From: Escherichia coli
Lineage (GTDB): Bacteria; Pseudomonadota; Gammaproteobacteria; Enterobacterales; Enterobacteriaceae
Reading direction: 5' to 3' (one strand)
NCBI RefSeq assembly: GCF_001677475.2
Contig: NZ_CP015229.1
Length of the DNA: 64,000 bases
A program made the position numbers. Position 1 is the stretch's first letter. Each line of letters begins with the position of its first letter. Shown one piece after another: positions 3,001-9,000 of the stretch.

Positions 3001-6000
3001 GCGAGGCAACAAAGAAGGGAATGATTGGGATTAATGCGCTCCATATTACCAGCGACATCACCGCCGGACGCGTTGAGTGCGACATGATCTTTTTATTGAA
3101 GATGTTGCCACACGCCCAACTAAATGCTGCCGCCATGGTCAACATAAAGCCAAGCATCGCCACATGCTGACCGTTTAGACTATCTTCGATTAACACCAGT
3201 ACGCCAAAAATCGCTAAGGCGATCCCCGCCAATTGTTTGCCATGCAGTCGCTCCCCGAAAGTAAACGCGCCAAGCACGATAGTAAAAAACGCCTGTGCCT
3301 GTAACACCAGCGAAGCCAGTCCAGCAGGCATACCAAAATTAATGGCGCAGAACAGAAAGGCAAACTGCGCAAAACTGATGGTTAATCCATACCCCAGCAG
3401 CAAATTCAGTGGTACTTTCGGTCGTGCGACAAAAAAGATGGCCGGAAAAGCGACCAGCATAAAGCGCAAACCGGCCAGCATCAGCGGTGGCATGTTATGA
3501 AGCCCCACTTTGATGACCACAAAATTTAGCCCCCATACGACCACTACCAGTAGCGCCAACACCCCATCTTTTCGCGACATTCTACCGCCTCTGAATTTCA
3601 TCTTTTGTAAGCAATCAACTTAGCTGAATTTACTTTTCTTTAACAGTTGATTCGTTAGTCGCCGATTACGACGGCATTAATGCGCAAATAAGTCGCTATA
3701 CTTCGGATTTTTGCCATGCTATTTCTTTACATCTCTAAAACAAAACATAACGAAACGCACTGCCGGACAGACAAATGAACTTATCCCTACGACGCTCTAC
3801 CAGCGCCCTTCTTGCCTCGTCGTTGTTATTAACCATTGGACGCGGCGCTACGCTGCCGTTTATGACCATTTACTTGAGTCGCCAGTACAGCCTGAGTGTC
3901 GATCTAATCGGTTATGCGATGACAATTGCGCTCACTATTGGCGTCGTTTTTAGCCTCGGTTTTGGTATCCTGGCGGATAAGTTCGACAAGAAACGCTATA
4001 TGTTACTGGCAATTACCGCCTTCGCCTGCGGTTTTATTGCCATTCCTTTAGTGAATAACGTGACGCTGGTGGTGCTCTTTTTTGCCCTTATTAACTGCGC
4101 CTATTCCGTTTTTGCTACCGTGTTGAAAGCCTGGTTTGCCGACAATCTTTCGTCCACCAGCAAAACGAAAATCTTCTCAATCAACTACACCATGCTCAAC
4201 ATTGGCTGGACCATCGGTCCGCCGCTCGGCACGCTGTTGGTGATGCAGAGCATCAATCTGCCCTTTTGGCTGGCAGCTATCTGTTCCGCGTTTCCCATGC
4301 TTTTCATTCAAATTTGGGTAAAGCGCAGCGAGAAAATCATCGCCACGGAAACAGGCAGTGTCTGGTCGCCGAAAGTTTTATTACAAGATAAAGCACTGTT
4401 GTGGTTTACCTGCTCTGGTTTTCTGGCTTCTTTTGTTAGCGGCGCATTTGCTTCTTGCATTTCACAATATGTGATGGTGATTGCTGATGGGGATTTTGCC
4501 GAAAAGGTGGTCGCGGTTGTTCTTCCGGTGAATGCTGCCATGGTGGTTACGTTGCAATATTCCGTGGGCCGCCGCCTTAACCCGGCTAACATCCGCGCGC
4601 TGATGACAGCAGGCACCCTCTGTTTCGTCATTGGGCTGGTCGGTTTTATTTTTTCCGGCAACAGCCTGCTATTGTGGGGTATGTCAGCTGCGGTATTTAC
4701 TGTCGGTGAAATCATTTATGCGCCGGGCGAGTATATGTTGATTGACCATATTGCGCCGCCAGGAATGAAAGCCAGCTATTTTTCCGCCCAGTCACTGGGC
4801 TGGCTTGGCGCAGCAGTTAATCCATTAGTTAGCGGAGTGGTGCTCACGAACATGCCCCCTTCCACGTTGTTTATCATCCTGGCGATGGTAATCATTGCCG
4901 CGTGGGTGTTAATGCTGAAAGGCATTCGTGCAAAATCCTGGGGGCCGCCTGTGGCATGTTGATGGGCGTGCCGTGCCTCACTGCCACGGCTTTACTCATT
5001 ATTTTCCTGTTGCAAAGGCGTAGCCTTCATCTTCCCAGCCGGTAATCCCGCCGAGCATGATTTTAACTGGCCTTCCTAGCTGGGCCAGTTTGAGTGCCGC
5101 CCGGTCTGCTCCATTACAATGTGGTCCCGCGCAATACACCACAAACAGAGTATCTTTCGACCATTGAGCCATTCTCTCTGAGGTCATTTGCTTATGGGGC
5201 AAATGAATCGCGCCGGGAATATGCCTGCGGGCGAAGTTTTCTTCACACCCAACCACATGCAATAAAACGAAGTCATCACCAACGTACGCCAGAGAGTCAT
5301 GAACATCGGCACAATCTGTTTCAAGACTCAGGCGTATGAGAAAATGCGCTTCGGCAATGTCCGGCGTCGCGGCTGTAAATTCAGTGACATAATGCATAGT
5401 GCTTTTTCCTATTGGTTTATTGTGTTAACAATAATGTAACCGACAAACCTTGCACTTACCGCCTCTCGATATGCCAGAAAAGCGCAAAATGATGACAATT
5501 TCACAACGCCCCCTGGTCGTTGTATTGGCCTATGATGGGCTATGTACTTTTGAATTTGGCGTCGCAGTTGAAATATTCGGCCTTCCACGCCCGGAAATGG
5601 GTGATAACTGGTATCGGTTTGCCGTCGCTGCGGTAGAAGCCGGTGCGTTGCAAGCCACTGGTGGGATCCGGGTGGTTGCGGATGGAGGGCTGGAGTTACT
5701 TGCTGACGCCGATATGATTATTATTCCCGGTTGGCGTGGAGTAGATGAACCGGTGCCAGAGATGCTATGTGAGGCGTTACGCGAAACTCACCAGCGAGGA
5801 ACTCGTCTGGTATCGATATGTTCTGGTGTATTTGTTCTTGCCGCCGCAGGCCTTCTTCACCAGCGTAAAGCGACCACCCACTGGCGCTACACTGAACAAC
5901 TCCAGCATCGTTACCCTTCTATTCATGTATGTGACAATGTTTTATATCAGGATGAAGGACAAGTCATGACTTCCGCAGGGAGTGCTGCAGGGATCGATCT

Positions 6001-9000
6001 GTGTTTACATATCGTGCGTAAAGATTATGGTCACGAAATTGCAAACAATGTCGCCCAACGGCTAGTCATCCAGCCGCATCGCCACGGAGAACAACCACAA
6101 AACATGACGCGTCCGATGGCTTCGTCGCGAGAAAGCCAGACGTTTGGCGCATTATTCGACTTTTTACAGCAAAATCTGGCGCAAACGCATACCGTTGCCT
6201 CTCTTGCCGGGCGAGTGAACATGAGCCAACGCACTTTTTTAAGACGTTTTGCCGCCTTAACGGGTATGACACCTGCCCGCTGGCTGCTTAATGAGCGGTT
6301 AATTCGCGTGCAGGATTATCTGCAAAATTCGGCTTTCAGCATCGATAAAATTGCCGAGCTGACGGGGTTTGGCAATTCAGCCTTACTAAGGCATCATTTT
6401 CTACAGCGTTTTTTATTATCTCCTTCGCAATACAGAAAAAACAGCCATCCTCCTTCACATTAATCACCTAATTCAGCCTTCGTTTAGGTTACCTCTGCTA
6501 ATATCTTTCTCATTGAGATGAAAATTAAGGTAAGCGAGGAAACACACCACACCATAAACGGAGGCAAATAATGCTGGGTAATATGAATGTTTTTATGGCC
6601 GTACTGGGAATAATTTTATTTTCTGGTTTTCTGGCCGCGTATTTCAGCCACAAATGGGATGACTAATGAACGGAGATAATCCCTCACCTAACCGGCCCCT
6701 TGTTACAACTGTGTACAAGGGGCCTGATTTTTATGACGGCGAAAAAAACCGCCAGTAAACCGGCGGTGAATGCTTGCATGGATAGATTTGTGTTTTGCTT
6801 TTACGCTAACAGGCATTTTCCTGCACTGATAACGGATCGTTGACACAGTAGCATCAGTTTTCTCAATGAATGTTAAACGGAGCTTAAACTCGGTTAATCA
6901 CGTTTTGTTCGTCAATAAACATACAGCGATTTCTTCCGGTTTGCTTACCCTCATACATTGCCCGGTCCGCTCTTCCAATGACCACATCCAGAGGCTCTTC
7001 AGGAAATGCGCGACTCACACCTGCTGTCACGGTAATGTTGATATGCCCTTCAGAATGTGTGATGGCATGGTTATCGACTAACTGGCAAATTCTGATACCT
7101 GCACGACATGCTTCTTCATCATTAGCCGCTTTGACAATAATGATAAATTCTTCGCCCCCGTAGCGATAAACCGTTTCGTAATCGCGCGTCCAACTGGCTA
7201 AGTAAGTTGCCAGGGTGCGTAATACTACATCGCCGATTAAATGCCCGTAGGTATCATTAACCAATTTAAATCGGTCAATATCCAACAACATTAAATAAAG
7301 ATTCAGAGGCTCAGCGTTGCGTAACTGATGATCAAAGGATTCATCAAGAACCCGACGACCCGGCAATCCCGTCAAAACATCCATATTGCTACGGATCGTC
7401 AGCAAATAAATTTTGTAATCGGTTAATGCCGCAGTAAAAGAAAGCAACCCTTCCTGAAAGGCGTCGAAATGCGCGTCCTGCCAGTGATTTTCAACAATAG
7501 CCAACATTAATTCCCGACCACAGTTATGCATATGTTGATGGGCAGAATCCATTAGCCGAACGTAAGGTAATTCATCGTTATCGAGTGGCCCCAGATGATC
7601 AATCCACCGACCAAACTGGCACAGTCCATAAGAATGGTTATCCGTTATTTCTGGCTTACTGGCATCTCTTGCGACCACGCTGTGAAACATACTCACCAGC
7701 CACTGGTAGTGGGCATCGATAGCCTTATTGAGATTTAACAAGATGGCATCAATTTCCGTTGTCTTCTTGATCATTGCCACTCCTTTTTCACAGTTCCTTG
7801 TGCGCGCTATTCTAACGAGAGAAAAGCAAAATTACGTCAATATTTTCATAGAAATCCGAAGTTATGAGCCATCTCTGAGATAACATTGTGATTTAAAACA
7901 AAATCAGCAGATAAAAAAGTGTTTAATTCTATAAATTAACTCTGCATTATCGCAATTAAAAGGATGACAAATAGCATAACCCAATACCCTAATGGCCCAG
8001 TAGTTCAGGCCATCAGGCTAATTTATTTTTATTTCTGCAAATGAGTGACCCGAACGACGGCCAGCGCGCTTTTCTTATCCAGACTGCCGCTAATGTTGAT
8101 CATCTGGTCCGGCTGAACTTCTCGTCCATCAAAGACTGCCGCAGGAATAACAACATTAATTTCACCGCTCTTATCGCGAAAAACGTAACGGTCCTCTCCT
8201 TTGTGAGAAATCAAATTACCGCGCAGTGAAACCGAAGCGCCATCATGCATGGTTTTTGCGAAATCAACGGTCATTTTTTTTGCATCATCGGTTCCGCGAT
8301 AGCCATCTTCTATTGCATGAGGCGGCGGTGGCGCTGCATCCTGTTTTAATCCGCCCTGGTCATCTGCCAACGCATAAGGCATGACAAGAAAACTTGCTAA
8401 TACAATGGCCTGAAATTTCATACTGACTCCTTAATTGCGTTTGGTTTGACTTATTAAGTCTGGTTGCTATTTTTATAATTGCCAAATAAGAATACTGCCA
8501 ATTGTTATAAGGCATTTAAAATCAGCCAACTAGCTGTCAAATATTCAGAGAATTTAAGTCACTAAAGTTAAGAAGATTGAAGAGTCTTAAACATATTTTC
8601 AGAATAATCGGATTTATATGTTTGAAAATTATTATATTGGACGAGCATACAGAAAAAGCAAATCACCTTTACATATAATAGCGTGGACAAAAAACAGTGA
8701 ACATTAATAAAGATAAAATTGTACAACTCGCAGATACCGACACTATTGAAAACCTGACATCCGCGTTGAGTCAAAGACTTATCGCGGATCAATTACGCTT
8801 AACTACCGCCGAATCATGCACCGGCGGTAAGTTGGCTAGCGCCCTGTGTGCAGCTGAAGATACACCCAAATTTTACGGTGCAGGCTTTGTTACTTTCACC
8901 GATCAGGCAAAGATGAAAATCCTCAGCGTAAGCCAGCAATCTCTTGAACGATATTCTGCGGTGAGTGAGAAAGTGGCAGCAGAAATGGCAACCGGTGCCA

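What the first reader, a model, noticed from the sequence alone, without database searches (positions are those of the whole stretch)
4999..6463. Rhodanese-domain gene plus GlxA-type regulator between ydeE and mgtS; ydfJ intact
A convergent pair (132-aa rhodanese-like protein; 337-aa DJ-1/PfpI plus AraC HTH regulator) lies between ydeE and mgtS, which I do not recall from the laboratory K-12 map. ydfJ (14928-16295) is uninterrupted, whereas in K-12 it is split by the Qin prophage. Together these indicate a non-K-12 background; the regulator-rhodanese pair may be a small variable sulfur-stress module.
Basis: partly seen in the sequence, partly recalled or inferred. Interest (0 to 1): 0.3.

Follow-up and report, generated by a model that had tools for sequence, protein, structure and literature searches.

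The report
Rhodanese and FtrA regulator gene pair
This E. coli strain carries an already-annotated but functionally unstudied two-gene unit, a small rhodanese-type sulfur enzyme and its probable regulator FtrA, which most E. coli including K-12 lack, probably through loss; it is an ordinary strain difference.

Summary
Window 4999-5397 (-) encodes a 132-aa rhodanese-domain protein. Window 5492-6463 (+) encodes a DJ-1/PfpI + AraC regulator that meets NCBI's FtrA equivalog model; 337 aa is only the longest ORF, from a TTG at 5450. The pair lies between ydeE and mgtS. K-12 MG1655 has 37 bp there instead of 1.5 kb, and its ydfJ is split by Qin, while the window's ydfJ is intact.

Two corrections. 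The genes are divergent (head-to-head, 94 bp apart), not convergent. The pair also does not look like an inserted module. It sits at this locus in 380 of 5,426 complete E. coli genomes, as two alleles about 84% identical, and in the same synteny in E. whittamii, Kosakonia and Kluyvera. There are no mobile-element signatures. It is therefore most likely ancestral and lost from most E. coli.

The rhodanese-FtrA pairing is conserved across Gamma- and Alphaproteobacteria and is under purifying selection (dN/dS 0.07-0.15). A conserved 30-bp block with an ATGMCA-N15-ATGACA direct repeat overlaps the ftrA start.

My inference is that FtrA acts as a GATR-type activator of the rhodanese gene, with an unknown ligand. 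Low interest: the genes are already annotated, and only their function is unknown.

The parts
3775..4962 (+). ydeE (MFS dipeptide exporter), left flank. Its last ~280 bp (4680-4962) are unusually divergent between the three haplotypes.
   Evidence: ORF; annotated ydeE in homologous regions; sliding identity 88-89% to K-12 and EDL933 in 4680-4879.
4960..4995 (.). Hairpin between the convergent stops of ydeE and the rhodanese gene; possible bidirectional terminator.
   Evidence: RNA fold -16.6 kcal/mol, z = -3.2 against shuffles. Function is inferred.
4999..5397 (-). Rhodanese-like single-domain protein, 132 aa. Invariant motif TLFVVYCAGPHCNGAD (Cys89, Cys94) and ETDC (Cys29).
   Evidence: Pfam PF00581 E=1.8e-11; alignment of 21 orthologues; closest solved structure is BH2092, 3o3w/3nhv, E=3e-20; annotated 'rhodanese-like domain-containing protein' in RefSeq.
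5398..5491 (.). Shared 94-bp divergent intergenic (promoter) region.
   Evidence: Sequence. Length is conserved at 92-110 bp in 21 loci. No consensus sigma-70 promoter was found, which fits activator dependence.
5433..5438 (-). Candidate -10 hexamer of the rhodanese promoter (TACATT on the - strand).
   Evidence: My own reading of the alignment. The aligned column keeps a TAnnnT hexamer in Kosakonia (TAGATT), Klebsiella (TAAAGT), Buttiauxella (TATAGT), Leclercia (TAGAGT) and Rouxiella (TACTAT). Inferred, not tested.
5471..5500 (+). Conserved 30-bp block with direct repeat ATGCCA (5471-5476) and ATGACA (5492-5497) in 21-bp register. Candidate FtrA operator overlapping the ftrA start codon.
   Evidence: It is the only match to ATGMCA-N15-ATGMCA in 64 kb (expected 0.07). 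The pattern is present in 17/20 loci, with degenerate versions in the rest. Mean information is 1.19 bits/position against 0.34 and 0.26 in the flanks across 15 genera.
5492..6463 (+). ftrA: DJ-1/PfpI (GATase1-like) domain plus AraC-type two-HTH DNA-binding domain, 323 aa. Invariant Cys110 in the ICSG nucleophile elbow.
   Evidence: NCBIfam NF006902, 550 bits against cut-off 425; Pfam; alignment; PDB relatives are AdpA for the DNA-binding domain and isonitrile hydratase for the DJ-1 domain; RefSeq start.
6571..6666 (+). mgtS, right flank, followed by mgtT at 6666-6770.
   Evidence: 100% aa identity to K-12 MgtS; annotation. Homology with K-12 resumes at 6469.
6660..6872 (-). MgrR / STnc560 Hfq-binding sRNA, right flank.
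   Evidence: Rfam RF01407, 275 bits; mgrR is annotated at the equivalent K-12 position.
14928..16295 (-). ydfJ, intact 455-aa MFS transporter gene. The K-12 Qin insertion point maps to 16200-16218.
   Evidence: ORF. blastn blocks 6469-16218 and 16200-21457 flank the 20.45-kb Qin in K-12. The N-terminus equals K-12 YnfP and the remainder equals K-12 YdfJ.

Best explanation
Window 4999-6463 is a self-contained two-gene unit that NCBI already annotates in other E. coli. It consists of a small rhodanese-fold protein and, divergently transcribed from a shared 94-bp region, the regulator FtrA. FtrA belongs to the GATase1/DJ-1-domain AraC regulators (GATR type).

The unit sits at its ancestral chromosomal position between ydeE and mgtS. 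Most E. coli, including K-12, have lost it. It survives as two deeply divergent alleles: one in the window and CE10-like strains, the other in the O157:H7 lineage, which resembles the allele of cryptic-clade Escherichia.

Inferred mechanism: FtrA binds the conserved direct repeat ATGMCA-N15-ATGACA. That repeat would centre at about -47 and -68 relative to a predicted rhodanese promoter, and it overlaps ftrA's own start. When FtrA's DJ-1-like domain detects an unknown small molecule, it activates the rhodanese gene and autoregulates. The rhodanese uses its invariant C-x4-C loop for sulfur transfer or thiol redox chemistry on that compound or its product.

Shown: gene identities, divergent arrangement, distribution, synteny, purifying selection and conservation of the DNA block. 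Inferred: DNA binding at that block, activation, the ligand and the enzyme chemistry.
For: Identity: Pfam and NCBIfam hits and the RefSeq annotation 'ftrA' plus 'rhodanese-like domain-containing protein'.

Distribution: 380/5,426 complete E. coli genomes, always on the chromosome with one copy each. 57 are >=99% identical and 323 are ~84% identical. In the three carriers whose annotation was retrieved and all 380 full-coverage matches to the flank-inclusive query, the pair lies between ydeE and mgtS.

Ancestral position: the ydeE-rhod-ftrA-mgtS order occurs in E. whittamii, Escherichia sp. E1V33, Kosakonia and Kluyvera. No IS elements, flanking repeats or GC anomaly were found.

Functional genes: dN/dS is 0.07-0.15 between alleles, with dS 0.66-0.84 against 0.05 in dgcZ.

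Functional coupling: 20 of 22 FtrA relatives with >=53% identity have the rhodanese divergently adjacent. So do Ensifer, Caulobacter and Enterobacter homologues. Other neighbours vary.

Operator candidate. In-frame stop codons between the half-sites in Rouxiella and Methylobrevis show the conservation is at the DNA level.

Characterised GATRs (GbdR, CdhR, SouR, CahR) are ligand-dependent activators of nearby genes that stay bound to DNA with or without ligand (bioRxiv 10.1101/2021.11.02.466972).
Against: No experiment on this FtrA or this rhodanese was found.

The conserved block could instead be ftrA's own core promoter plus a leaderless start. In Buttiauxella, Leclercia and Citrobacter a TTGAC hexamer lies 16-17 nt upstream of the conserved gATAAC.

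The promoter scan found no sigma-70 site in the intergenic region, so the -10 assignment is my reading of an alignment.

The rhodanese loop CAGPHCN departs from the CRxGx[R/T] loop of proven sulfurtransferases, so its activity is uncertain.

Known GATR ligands are amines, not sulfur compounds.

The K-12 'empty' haplotype has its own divergent ydeE 3' end and no clear deletion scar beyond a possible 8-nt remnant CACAATAA. The loss is therefore old, and its direction rests on outgroup synteny.
Confidence: 0.6

Rival explanations
1. One reading: the pair is a small accessory 'sulfur-stress module' that was horizontally inserted between ydeE and mgtS in some non-K-12 lineages. The empty K-12 arrangement is then ancestral for E. 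coli.
For: Only 7% of complete E. coli genomes carry it. The genome-contig scan returned Escherichia loci only for E. whittamii and Escherichia sp. E1V33. The O157 allele is 95-98% identical to cryptic-clade Escherichia while the neighbouring dgcZ is ~85% identical, so at least that allele moved by recombination. Alphaproteobacterial homologues at 59-73% identity suggest the pair travels as a unit.
Against: The gene order is identical in E. whittamii, Kosakonia and Kluyvera. There is no integrase, IS element, tRNA, flanking repeat or GC shift. The window allele's dS to E. whittamii (0.57-0.73) matches that of the flanking ydeE (0.58), as expected for vertical descent.
Confidence: 0.2
2. The conserved 30-bp block is only ftrA's own core promoter and leaderless translation start. 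FtrA does not regulate the rhodanese, and the two genes are neighbours because they are co-inherited.
For: A TTGAC-like hexamer lies 16-17 nt upstream of the conserved gATAAC in several genera. The second ATGMCA is the start codon, with no Shine-Dalgarno sequence before it.
Against: E. coli, Kosakonia and Klebsiella lack the TTGAC hexamer at that column, yet they keep the repeat. A 21-bp direct-repeat register is typical of AraC-family sites (established knowledge). The strict divergent adjacency across two proteobacterial classes, with variable other neighbours, argues for a functional link.
Confidence: 0.2
3. The rhodanese is the sensor partner rather than the output. It picks up sulfane sulfur (or another thiol modification) and relays it to FtrA's invariant Cys110 or Cys18, which switches the regulator. 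The real regulon lies elsewhere.
For: Cysteines are invariant in both proteins: rhodanese C29, C89 and C94, and FtrA C110 with C18 nearly invariant. FtrA C110 aligns with the Cys of the SVCTGS motif of isonitrile hydratase, which from memory is its catalytic nucleophile.
Against: A conserved Cys in the ThiJ-like domain is a general GATR trait and those domains are predicted to be catalytically inactive. No interaction data exist. The hypothesis is pure inference.
Confidence: 0.1
4. The pair is a decaying remnant without function in E. coli.
For: It has been lost from 93% of genomes. ftrA appears frameshifted in Leclercia NCTC13032.
Against: Both ORFs are intact in the window, CE10, EDL933 and E. 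whittamii, with dN/dS of 0.07-0.15 over dS of ~0.7.
Confidence: 0.02

Closest known systems
RefSeq 'transcriptional regulator FtrA' (NCBIfam NF006902 / PRK09393) with its adjacent 'rhodanese-like domain-containing protein' in E. coli CE10, AR_0077 and O157:H7 EDL933
   Same: It is the same genes at the same locus. Identity is 99.4-99.5% nt to CE10 and AR_0077 and ~84% nt (86-89% aa) to EDL933.
   Different: Nothing of substance. The window strain is simply another carrier. No function is attached to the name.
GATR regulators (GATase1/DJ-1-domain AraC family): GbdR, CdhR, SouR, ArgR, CahR of Pseudomonas; AdpA of Streptomyces
   Same: The two-domain architecture is the same. The DNA-binding domain is closest in the PDB to AdpA (E=4e-17), and GbdR is the second-best NCBIfam hit. 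A conserved Cys sits in the ThiJ-like domain, and the family typically controls a neighbouring gene.
   Different: FtrA scores 132 bits against the GbdR cut-off of 480, so it is not an orthologue. Known GATR ligands are amines and their targets are catabolic operons. Here the only constant neighbour is a rhodanese.
BH2092 of Bacillus halodurans (PDB 3o3w, 3nhv), a structural-genomics rhodanese of unknown function
   Same: It aligns over residues 10-124 at E=3e-20. The loop motif YC-x-GP-x-CNGA and the N-terminal helical extension are shared.
   Different: It lacks the ETDC cysteine (ETDIAD). Its genomic context was not examined and no function is known.
Single-domain sulfurtransferases GlpE and PspE of E. 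coli
   Same: They share the rhodanese fold, with a Cys at the end of the central strand.
   Different: GlpE scores 16 bits against a cut-off of 102. The loop is CAGPHCN, longer than the six-residue CxxGx[R/S/T] type (from memory), with a second Cys and no basic residue.
YgaV-YgaP (an ArsR-type regulator with a rhodanese) of E. coli, recalled from memory
   Same: A regulator gene is paired with a rhodanese gene.
   Different: The regulator family is different (ArsR, not DJ-1/AraC). YgaP is membrane-anchored and the genes form an operon rather than being divergent. This was not tested here.

Membership tests
FtrA (NCBIfam NF006902 equivalog) | Whole-protein score at or above the curated cut-off (425 bits) with full-length coverage | tested here: met
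   550 bits, E=1.7e-165, residues 13-333 of the 337-aa ORF against profile positions 3-323 of 327.
GATR (GATase1/DJ-1-domain AraC regulators) | N-terminal DJ-1/PfpI (ThiJ-like) domain plus C-terminal AraC-type double HTH | tested here: met
   PF01965 E=2.5e-19; PF12833 E=6e-19; PF00165 E=5e-11.
GATR (GATase1/DJ-1-domain AraC regulators) | Conserved cysteine in the nucleophile elbow of the ThiJ-like domain | tested here: met
   Cys110 (ICSG) is invariant in 21 orthologues. It aligns with the Cys in SVCTGS of isonitrile hydratase.
GATR (GATase1/DJ-1-domain AraC regulators) | Ligand-dependent activation of a neighbouring gene through a specific promoter site | not testable with these tools
   Only indirect support: a conserved direct repeat in the divergent region and strict co-occurrence with the rhodanese.
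GbdR orthologue | NCBIfam NF052371 score >= 480 bits | tested here: not met
   132 bits.
Rhodanese homology domain (PF00581) | Domain score above the gathering threshold | tested here: met
   44.8 bits against 22.2.
Catalytically active rhodanese sulfurtransferase (GlpE/PspE type) | Cys at the end of the central strand followed by a six-residue loop ending in a basic or hydroxyl residue (CRxGx[R/T], from established knowledge) | tested here: inconclusive
   Cys89 is at the canonical position and invariant, but the loop is CAGPHCNG with a second invariant Cys94 and no Arg. GlpE model: 16 bits against a cut-off of 102.
Catalytically active rhodanese sulfurtransferase (GlpE/PspE type) | Thiosulfate:cyanide sulfurtransferase activity | not testable with these tools
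   Needs an enzyme assay.
Genomic island / mobile insertion | Integrase or transposase, flanking direct or inverted repeats, a tRNA or att site, deviant composition | tested here: not met
   There are no such ORFs in 4963-6570. Only short chance-level repeats were found. GC is 0.47-0.52, like the flanks.
MG1655 has ydeE followed by mgtS with 37 bp in place of 1.5 kb, and Qin inside ydfJ.

The most novel reading that the evidence does not exclude
The FtrA-rhodanese pair may be a widespread but unstudied stand-alone sensor/effector module of Alpha- and Gammaproteobacteria. In it a DJ-1-domain AraC regulator, a family known so far only for amine sensing, would respond to a reactive sulfur, cyanide/isonitrile-like or electrophilic compound. 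It would then switch on a C-x4-C rhodanese through a conserved 21-bp-register operator. That would extend the GATR family to a new ligand class and give a function to the BH2092-type rhodaneses.
Probability: 0.2. Interest if true: 0.45.

Novelty: already known. Interest (0 to 1): 0.15.

Why it matters
As a genome-scan finding it matters little. It is a correctly spotted strain difference from K-12 that RefSeq already annotates in hundreds of E. coli genomes, O157:H7 among them.

Two by-products may be of modest use:
- The locus is a clean example of an ancestral gene pair that segregates in E. coli as three old haplotypes: empty, native and cryptic-clade-like.
- The strict rhodanese-FtrA pairing, with a conserved operator-like repeat, gives a simple and testable entry point to an uncharacterised regulator family and an uncharacterised rhodanese subfamily.

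Tried and rejected
- Literature on 'FtrA'. Most hits concern the unrelated FtrABCD iron transporter. The regulator appears only in gene lists: a mildly acid-sensitive Tn mutant in Rhizobium tropici and an RT-qPCR reference gene in P. syringae.
- Searches for 'rhodanese + GlxA', 'BH2092' and 'rhodanese + ydeE + O157' found nothing relevant.
- The consensus promoter scan found no sigma-70 site in the intergenic region.
- A search for flanking repeats or microhomology that could explain an insertion or deletion found only short chance-level matches. The 11-nt AATTCAGCCTT at 6374 and 6470 does not bracket the indel.
- Neighbour analysis for a conserved third gene found only a Meth_synt_2 gene in some genera and none in Escherichia.
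- The idea that the upstream ATG (5471) or TTG (5450) is the true ftrA start, which would make the repeat coding sequence, was rejected. In-frame stops lie between the half-sites in Rouxiella and Methylobrevis, and there is no 3-nt periodicity of conservation.
- Structure prediction was not run. The tool returns no coordinates, so Cys-Cys distances could not be measured.

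
Full report
**1. What is in the sequence**

The ORF list shows a 132-aa ORF at 4999-5397 on the minus strand. It also shows a 337-aa ORF at 5450-6463 on the plus strand that begins with TTG.

- The first ORF matches the Pfam Rhodanese domain (E=1.8e-11).
- The second matches DJ-1_PfpI (E=2.5e-19) and the AraC-type HTH_18 and HTH_AraC domains.
- Against NCBIfam the second protein scores 550 bits on the equivalog model 'transcriptional regulator FtrA' (NF006902, cut-off 425). The rhodanese reaches no equivalog cut-off; GlpE scores 16 bits against 102.
- RefSeq annotations of the same gene in CE10 and EDL933 start at the ATG equivalent to window 5492, giving 323 aa.

The flanks are ydeE (3775-4962), mgtS (6571-6666), mgtT and the MgrR/STnc560 sRNA (Rfam, 275 bits).

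The orientation is not. The rhodanese gene starts at 5397 and reads leftwards, and ftrA starts at 5492 and reads rightwards. The pair is divergent, with a shared 94-bp control region. A stable hairpin lies between the convergent stops of ydeE and the rhodanese gene.

**2. Comparison with K-12**

In MG1655 the annotation runs eamA, ydeE, mgtS, mgtT, mgrR, dgcZ, with nothing between ydeE and mgtS. The Qin prophage (1632277-1652745) separates ydfJ (427 aa) from its N-terminal fragment ynfP.

A direct blastn gives three colinear blocks:

| Window | K-12 locus L028 | Identity |
|---|---|---|
| 2-4949 | 1561-6507 | 97.3% |
| 6469-16218 | 6545-16292 | 98.2% |
| 16200-21457 | 36744-42001 | 98.6% |

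The 1.5 kb at 4950-6468 corresponds to 37 bp in K-12. The 20.45-kb Qin element is absent from the window. The two blocks overlap by 19 bp at 16200-16218 inside ydfJ, at the point where Qin sits in K-12. The window's 455-aa YdfJ equals the start of K-12 YnfP followed by K-12 YdfJ.

**3. Distribution in E. coli**

- Among 5,426 complete E. coli genomes, 380 (7%) carry the pair, always once and on the chromosome.
- 57 genomes carry the window-type allele at >=99% identity. They include the neonatal-meningitis strain CE10, which I recall as phylogroup F.
- 323 genomes, mostly O157:H7 together with O55:H7, carry an allele only ~84% identical.
- All other genomes show the K-12-type junction.
- RefSeq already labels the genes 'ftrA' and 'rhodanese-like domain-containing protein'.

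**4. Gain or loss?**

A scan of one genome per bacterial species, followed by tblastn of the flanking proteins, gave these gene orders:

- eamA-ydeE-rhodanese-ftrA-mgtS-dgcZ in Escherichia whittamii.
- eamA-ydeE-rhodanese-ftrA in Escherichia sp. E1V33, where the held sequence ends within ftrA.
- eamA-ydeE-(Meth_synt_2 gene)-rhodanese-ftrA-mgtS in Kosakonia and Kluyvera.

There is no integrase, IS element, tRNA or flanking repeat, and GC content is unremarkable. The parsimonious reading is that the pair is ancestral at this site and was lost in most E. coli.

Divergence statistics fit this reading:

| Comparison | dS |
|---|---|
| Window allele vs O157 allele (rhodanese, ftrA) | 0.66-0.84 |
| dgcZ within E. 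coli | 0.05 |
| Window allele vs E. whittamii | 0.57-0.73 |
| Flanking ydeE, window vs E. whittamii | 0.58 |
| O157 allele vs E. whittamii | 0.14-0.26 |

The window allele's distance to E. whittamii equals that of the flanking ydeE, as expected for vertical descent. The O157 allele is much closer to E. whittamii.

A sliding-window comparison shows that EDL933 resembles E. whittamii (91-98%) more than other E. coli across window coordinates ~4680-6478. The boundary at the ftrA stop codon is sharp. The O157 allele was therefore probably exchanged with a cryptic-clade Escherichia by homologous recombination.

The K-12-type empty haplotype has its own divergent ydeE 3' end. It keeps at most an 8-nt possible remnant of the ftrA end, CACAATAA. 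The loss is therefore old.

**5. Are the genes functional and linked?**

dN/dS between the alleles is 0.12-0.15 for the rhodanese and 0.07-0.08 for ftrA, which indicates strong purifying selection.

The divergent rhodanese-ftrA arrangement recurs widely:

- It is present in 20 of 22 loci encoding FtrA relatives of >=53% identity. These are Escherichia, Kosakonia, Kluyvera, Klebsiella, Buttiauxella, Leclercia, Citrobacter, Rouxiella and Mangrovibacter, plus the alphaproteobacteria Methylobrevis and Rhizobium.
- It is present next to rhodanese homologues of Ensifer, Caulobacter and Enterobacter, but not Devosia.
- Other neighbours differ from genus to genus.

The rhodanese family is large: 6,923 clusters at E<=1e-10, all named only 'rhodanese-like'.

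Conserved residues:

- In the rhodanese, TLFVVYCAGPHCNGAD and ETDC are invariant across the orthologues.
- The closest solved structure is the uncharacterised BH2092 of Bacillus halodurans (E=3e-20), which shares YCxGPxCNGA.
- FtrA keeps an invariant Cys110 in the ICSG nucleophile elbow. This Cys aligns with the Cys in SVCTGS of isonitrile hydratase. The FtrA DNA-binding domain is closest to AdpA.

**6. Cis element**

Aligning the intergenic regions revealed a conserved block overlapping the ftrA start.

- Anchored alignments from 15 genera give the consensus ATGmCA-nAtAaC-N-caagATc-ATGaCAAa. Mean information is 1.19 bits per position, against 0.34 upstream and 0.26 in the first coding bases downstream.
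- Its core is a direct repeat ATGMCA-N15-ATGACA, in a 21-bp register. The exact pattern is present in 17 of 20 loci and degenerate in the rest.
- In the window it lies at 5471-5497. It is the only match in 64 kb, where 0.07 are expected.
- In-frame stop codons between the half-sites in Rouxiella and Methylobrevis exclude a purely coding explanation.

From the alignment I read a conserved TAnnnT hexamer on the rhodanese strand (window 5438-5433). That would place the repeats at about -47 and -68 of a rhodanese promoter. From established knowledge, this geometry is typical of AraC-family activators. This part is inference.

A rival reading is that the block is ftrA's own promoter and leaderless start.

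**7. Mechanism proposed**

Characterised GATase1-domain AraC regulators (GbdR, CdhR, SouR, CahR) are ligand-dependent activators that stay on their DNA site with or without ligand and control nearby genes (bioRxiv 10.1101/2021.11.02.466972).

By analogy, FtrA most likely sits on the repeat, activates the divergent rhodanese gene when its DJ-1-like domain detects a small molecule, and autoregulates. The ligand is unknown. Known GATR ligands are amines, and a sulfur-related signal is only suggested by the rhodanese.

The rhodanese's atypical C-x4-C loop leaves its chemistry open. No paper on either protein was found.

**8. Verdict**

The finding is a correct but ordinary strain difference, and the genes are already annotated. 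Interest is low. The only open question is the function of the widespread FtrA-rhodanese unit.

Noticed in passing
window 2681-3300 and 4680-6478, compared with L002 (EDL933) and L004 (E. whittamii): O157:H7 EDL933 is mosaic here. The eamA 3' part and the tract from the ydeE 3' end to the ftrA stop are 91-98% identical to E. whittamii but only 77-89% identical to the window. This suggests recombination with cryptic-clade Escherichia.
   Followed up: partly
window 4680-4962 (3' end of ydeE): Three mutually divergent versions of the ydeE 3' end (~88-89% pairwise) exist in K-12, the window and EDL933, while the rest of ydeE is 94-99.5% identical. The empty haplotype is therefore not a recent deletion from either pair-bearing allele.
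   Followed up: partly
L006, L010, L023 and L032 (Kluyvera, Kosakonia, Mangrovibacter, Enterobacter), immediately downstream of the rhodanese gene: A ~370-aa Meth_synt_2 (cobalamin-independent methionine-synthase-like) gene follows the rhodanese on the same strand in these genera. It is absent in Escherichia.
   Followed up: partly
window 1-24000: No complete E. coli genome matches this stretch at >=99% overall. The best colinear hits are 96.5% identical. The 98.3% hits span about 5.8 kb more than the query and carry extra annotated genes, including a carbohydrate porin and a 6-phospho-beta-glucosidase. The window strain is not closely represented in the collection, at least here.
   Followed up: no
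L003 (CE10) 1-152: In CE10 a GntR-family regulator gene, not marB, lies next to eamA. The mar-eamA junction therefore also varies between carriers of the window-type allele.
   Followed up: no
L018 (Leclercia adecarboxylata NCTC13032) 4001-4964: ftrA matches in two overlapping pieces in different frames (query residues 2-57 and 48-322). This suggests a frameshifted pseudogene or a sequencing error.
   Followed up: no
window 6660-6872 (-): The MgrR/STnc560 Hfq-binding sRNA is intact next to mgtS-mgtT (Rfam, 275 bits), with a terminator-like hairpin at 6767-6748.
   Followed up: yes
L019 and L021 (Burkholderiaceae bacterium 16): These are the only two FtrA relatives (53-55% identity) without an adjacent rhodanese, and one of them lies near a thioredoxin-reductase-like ORF.
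   Followed up: no
   Followed up: no
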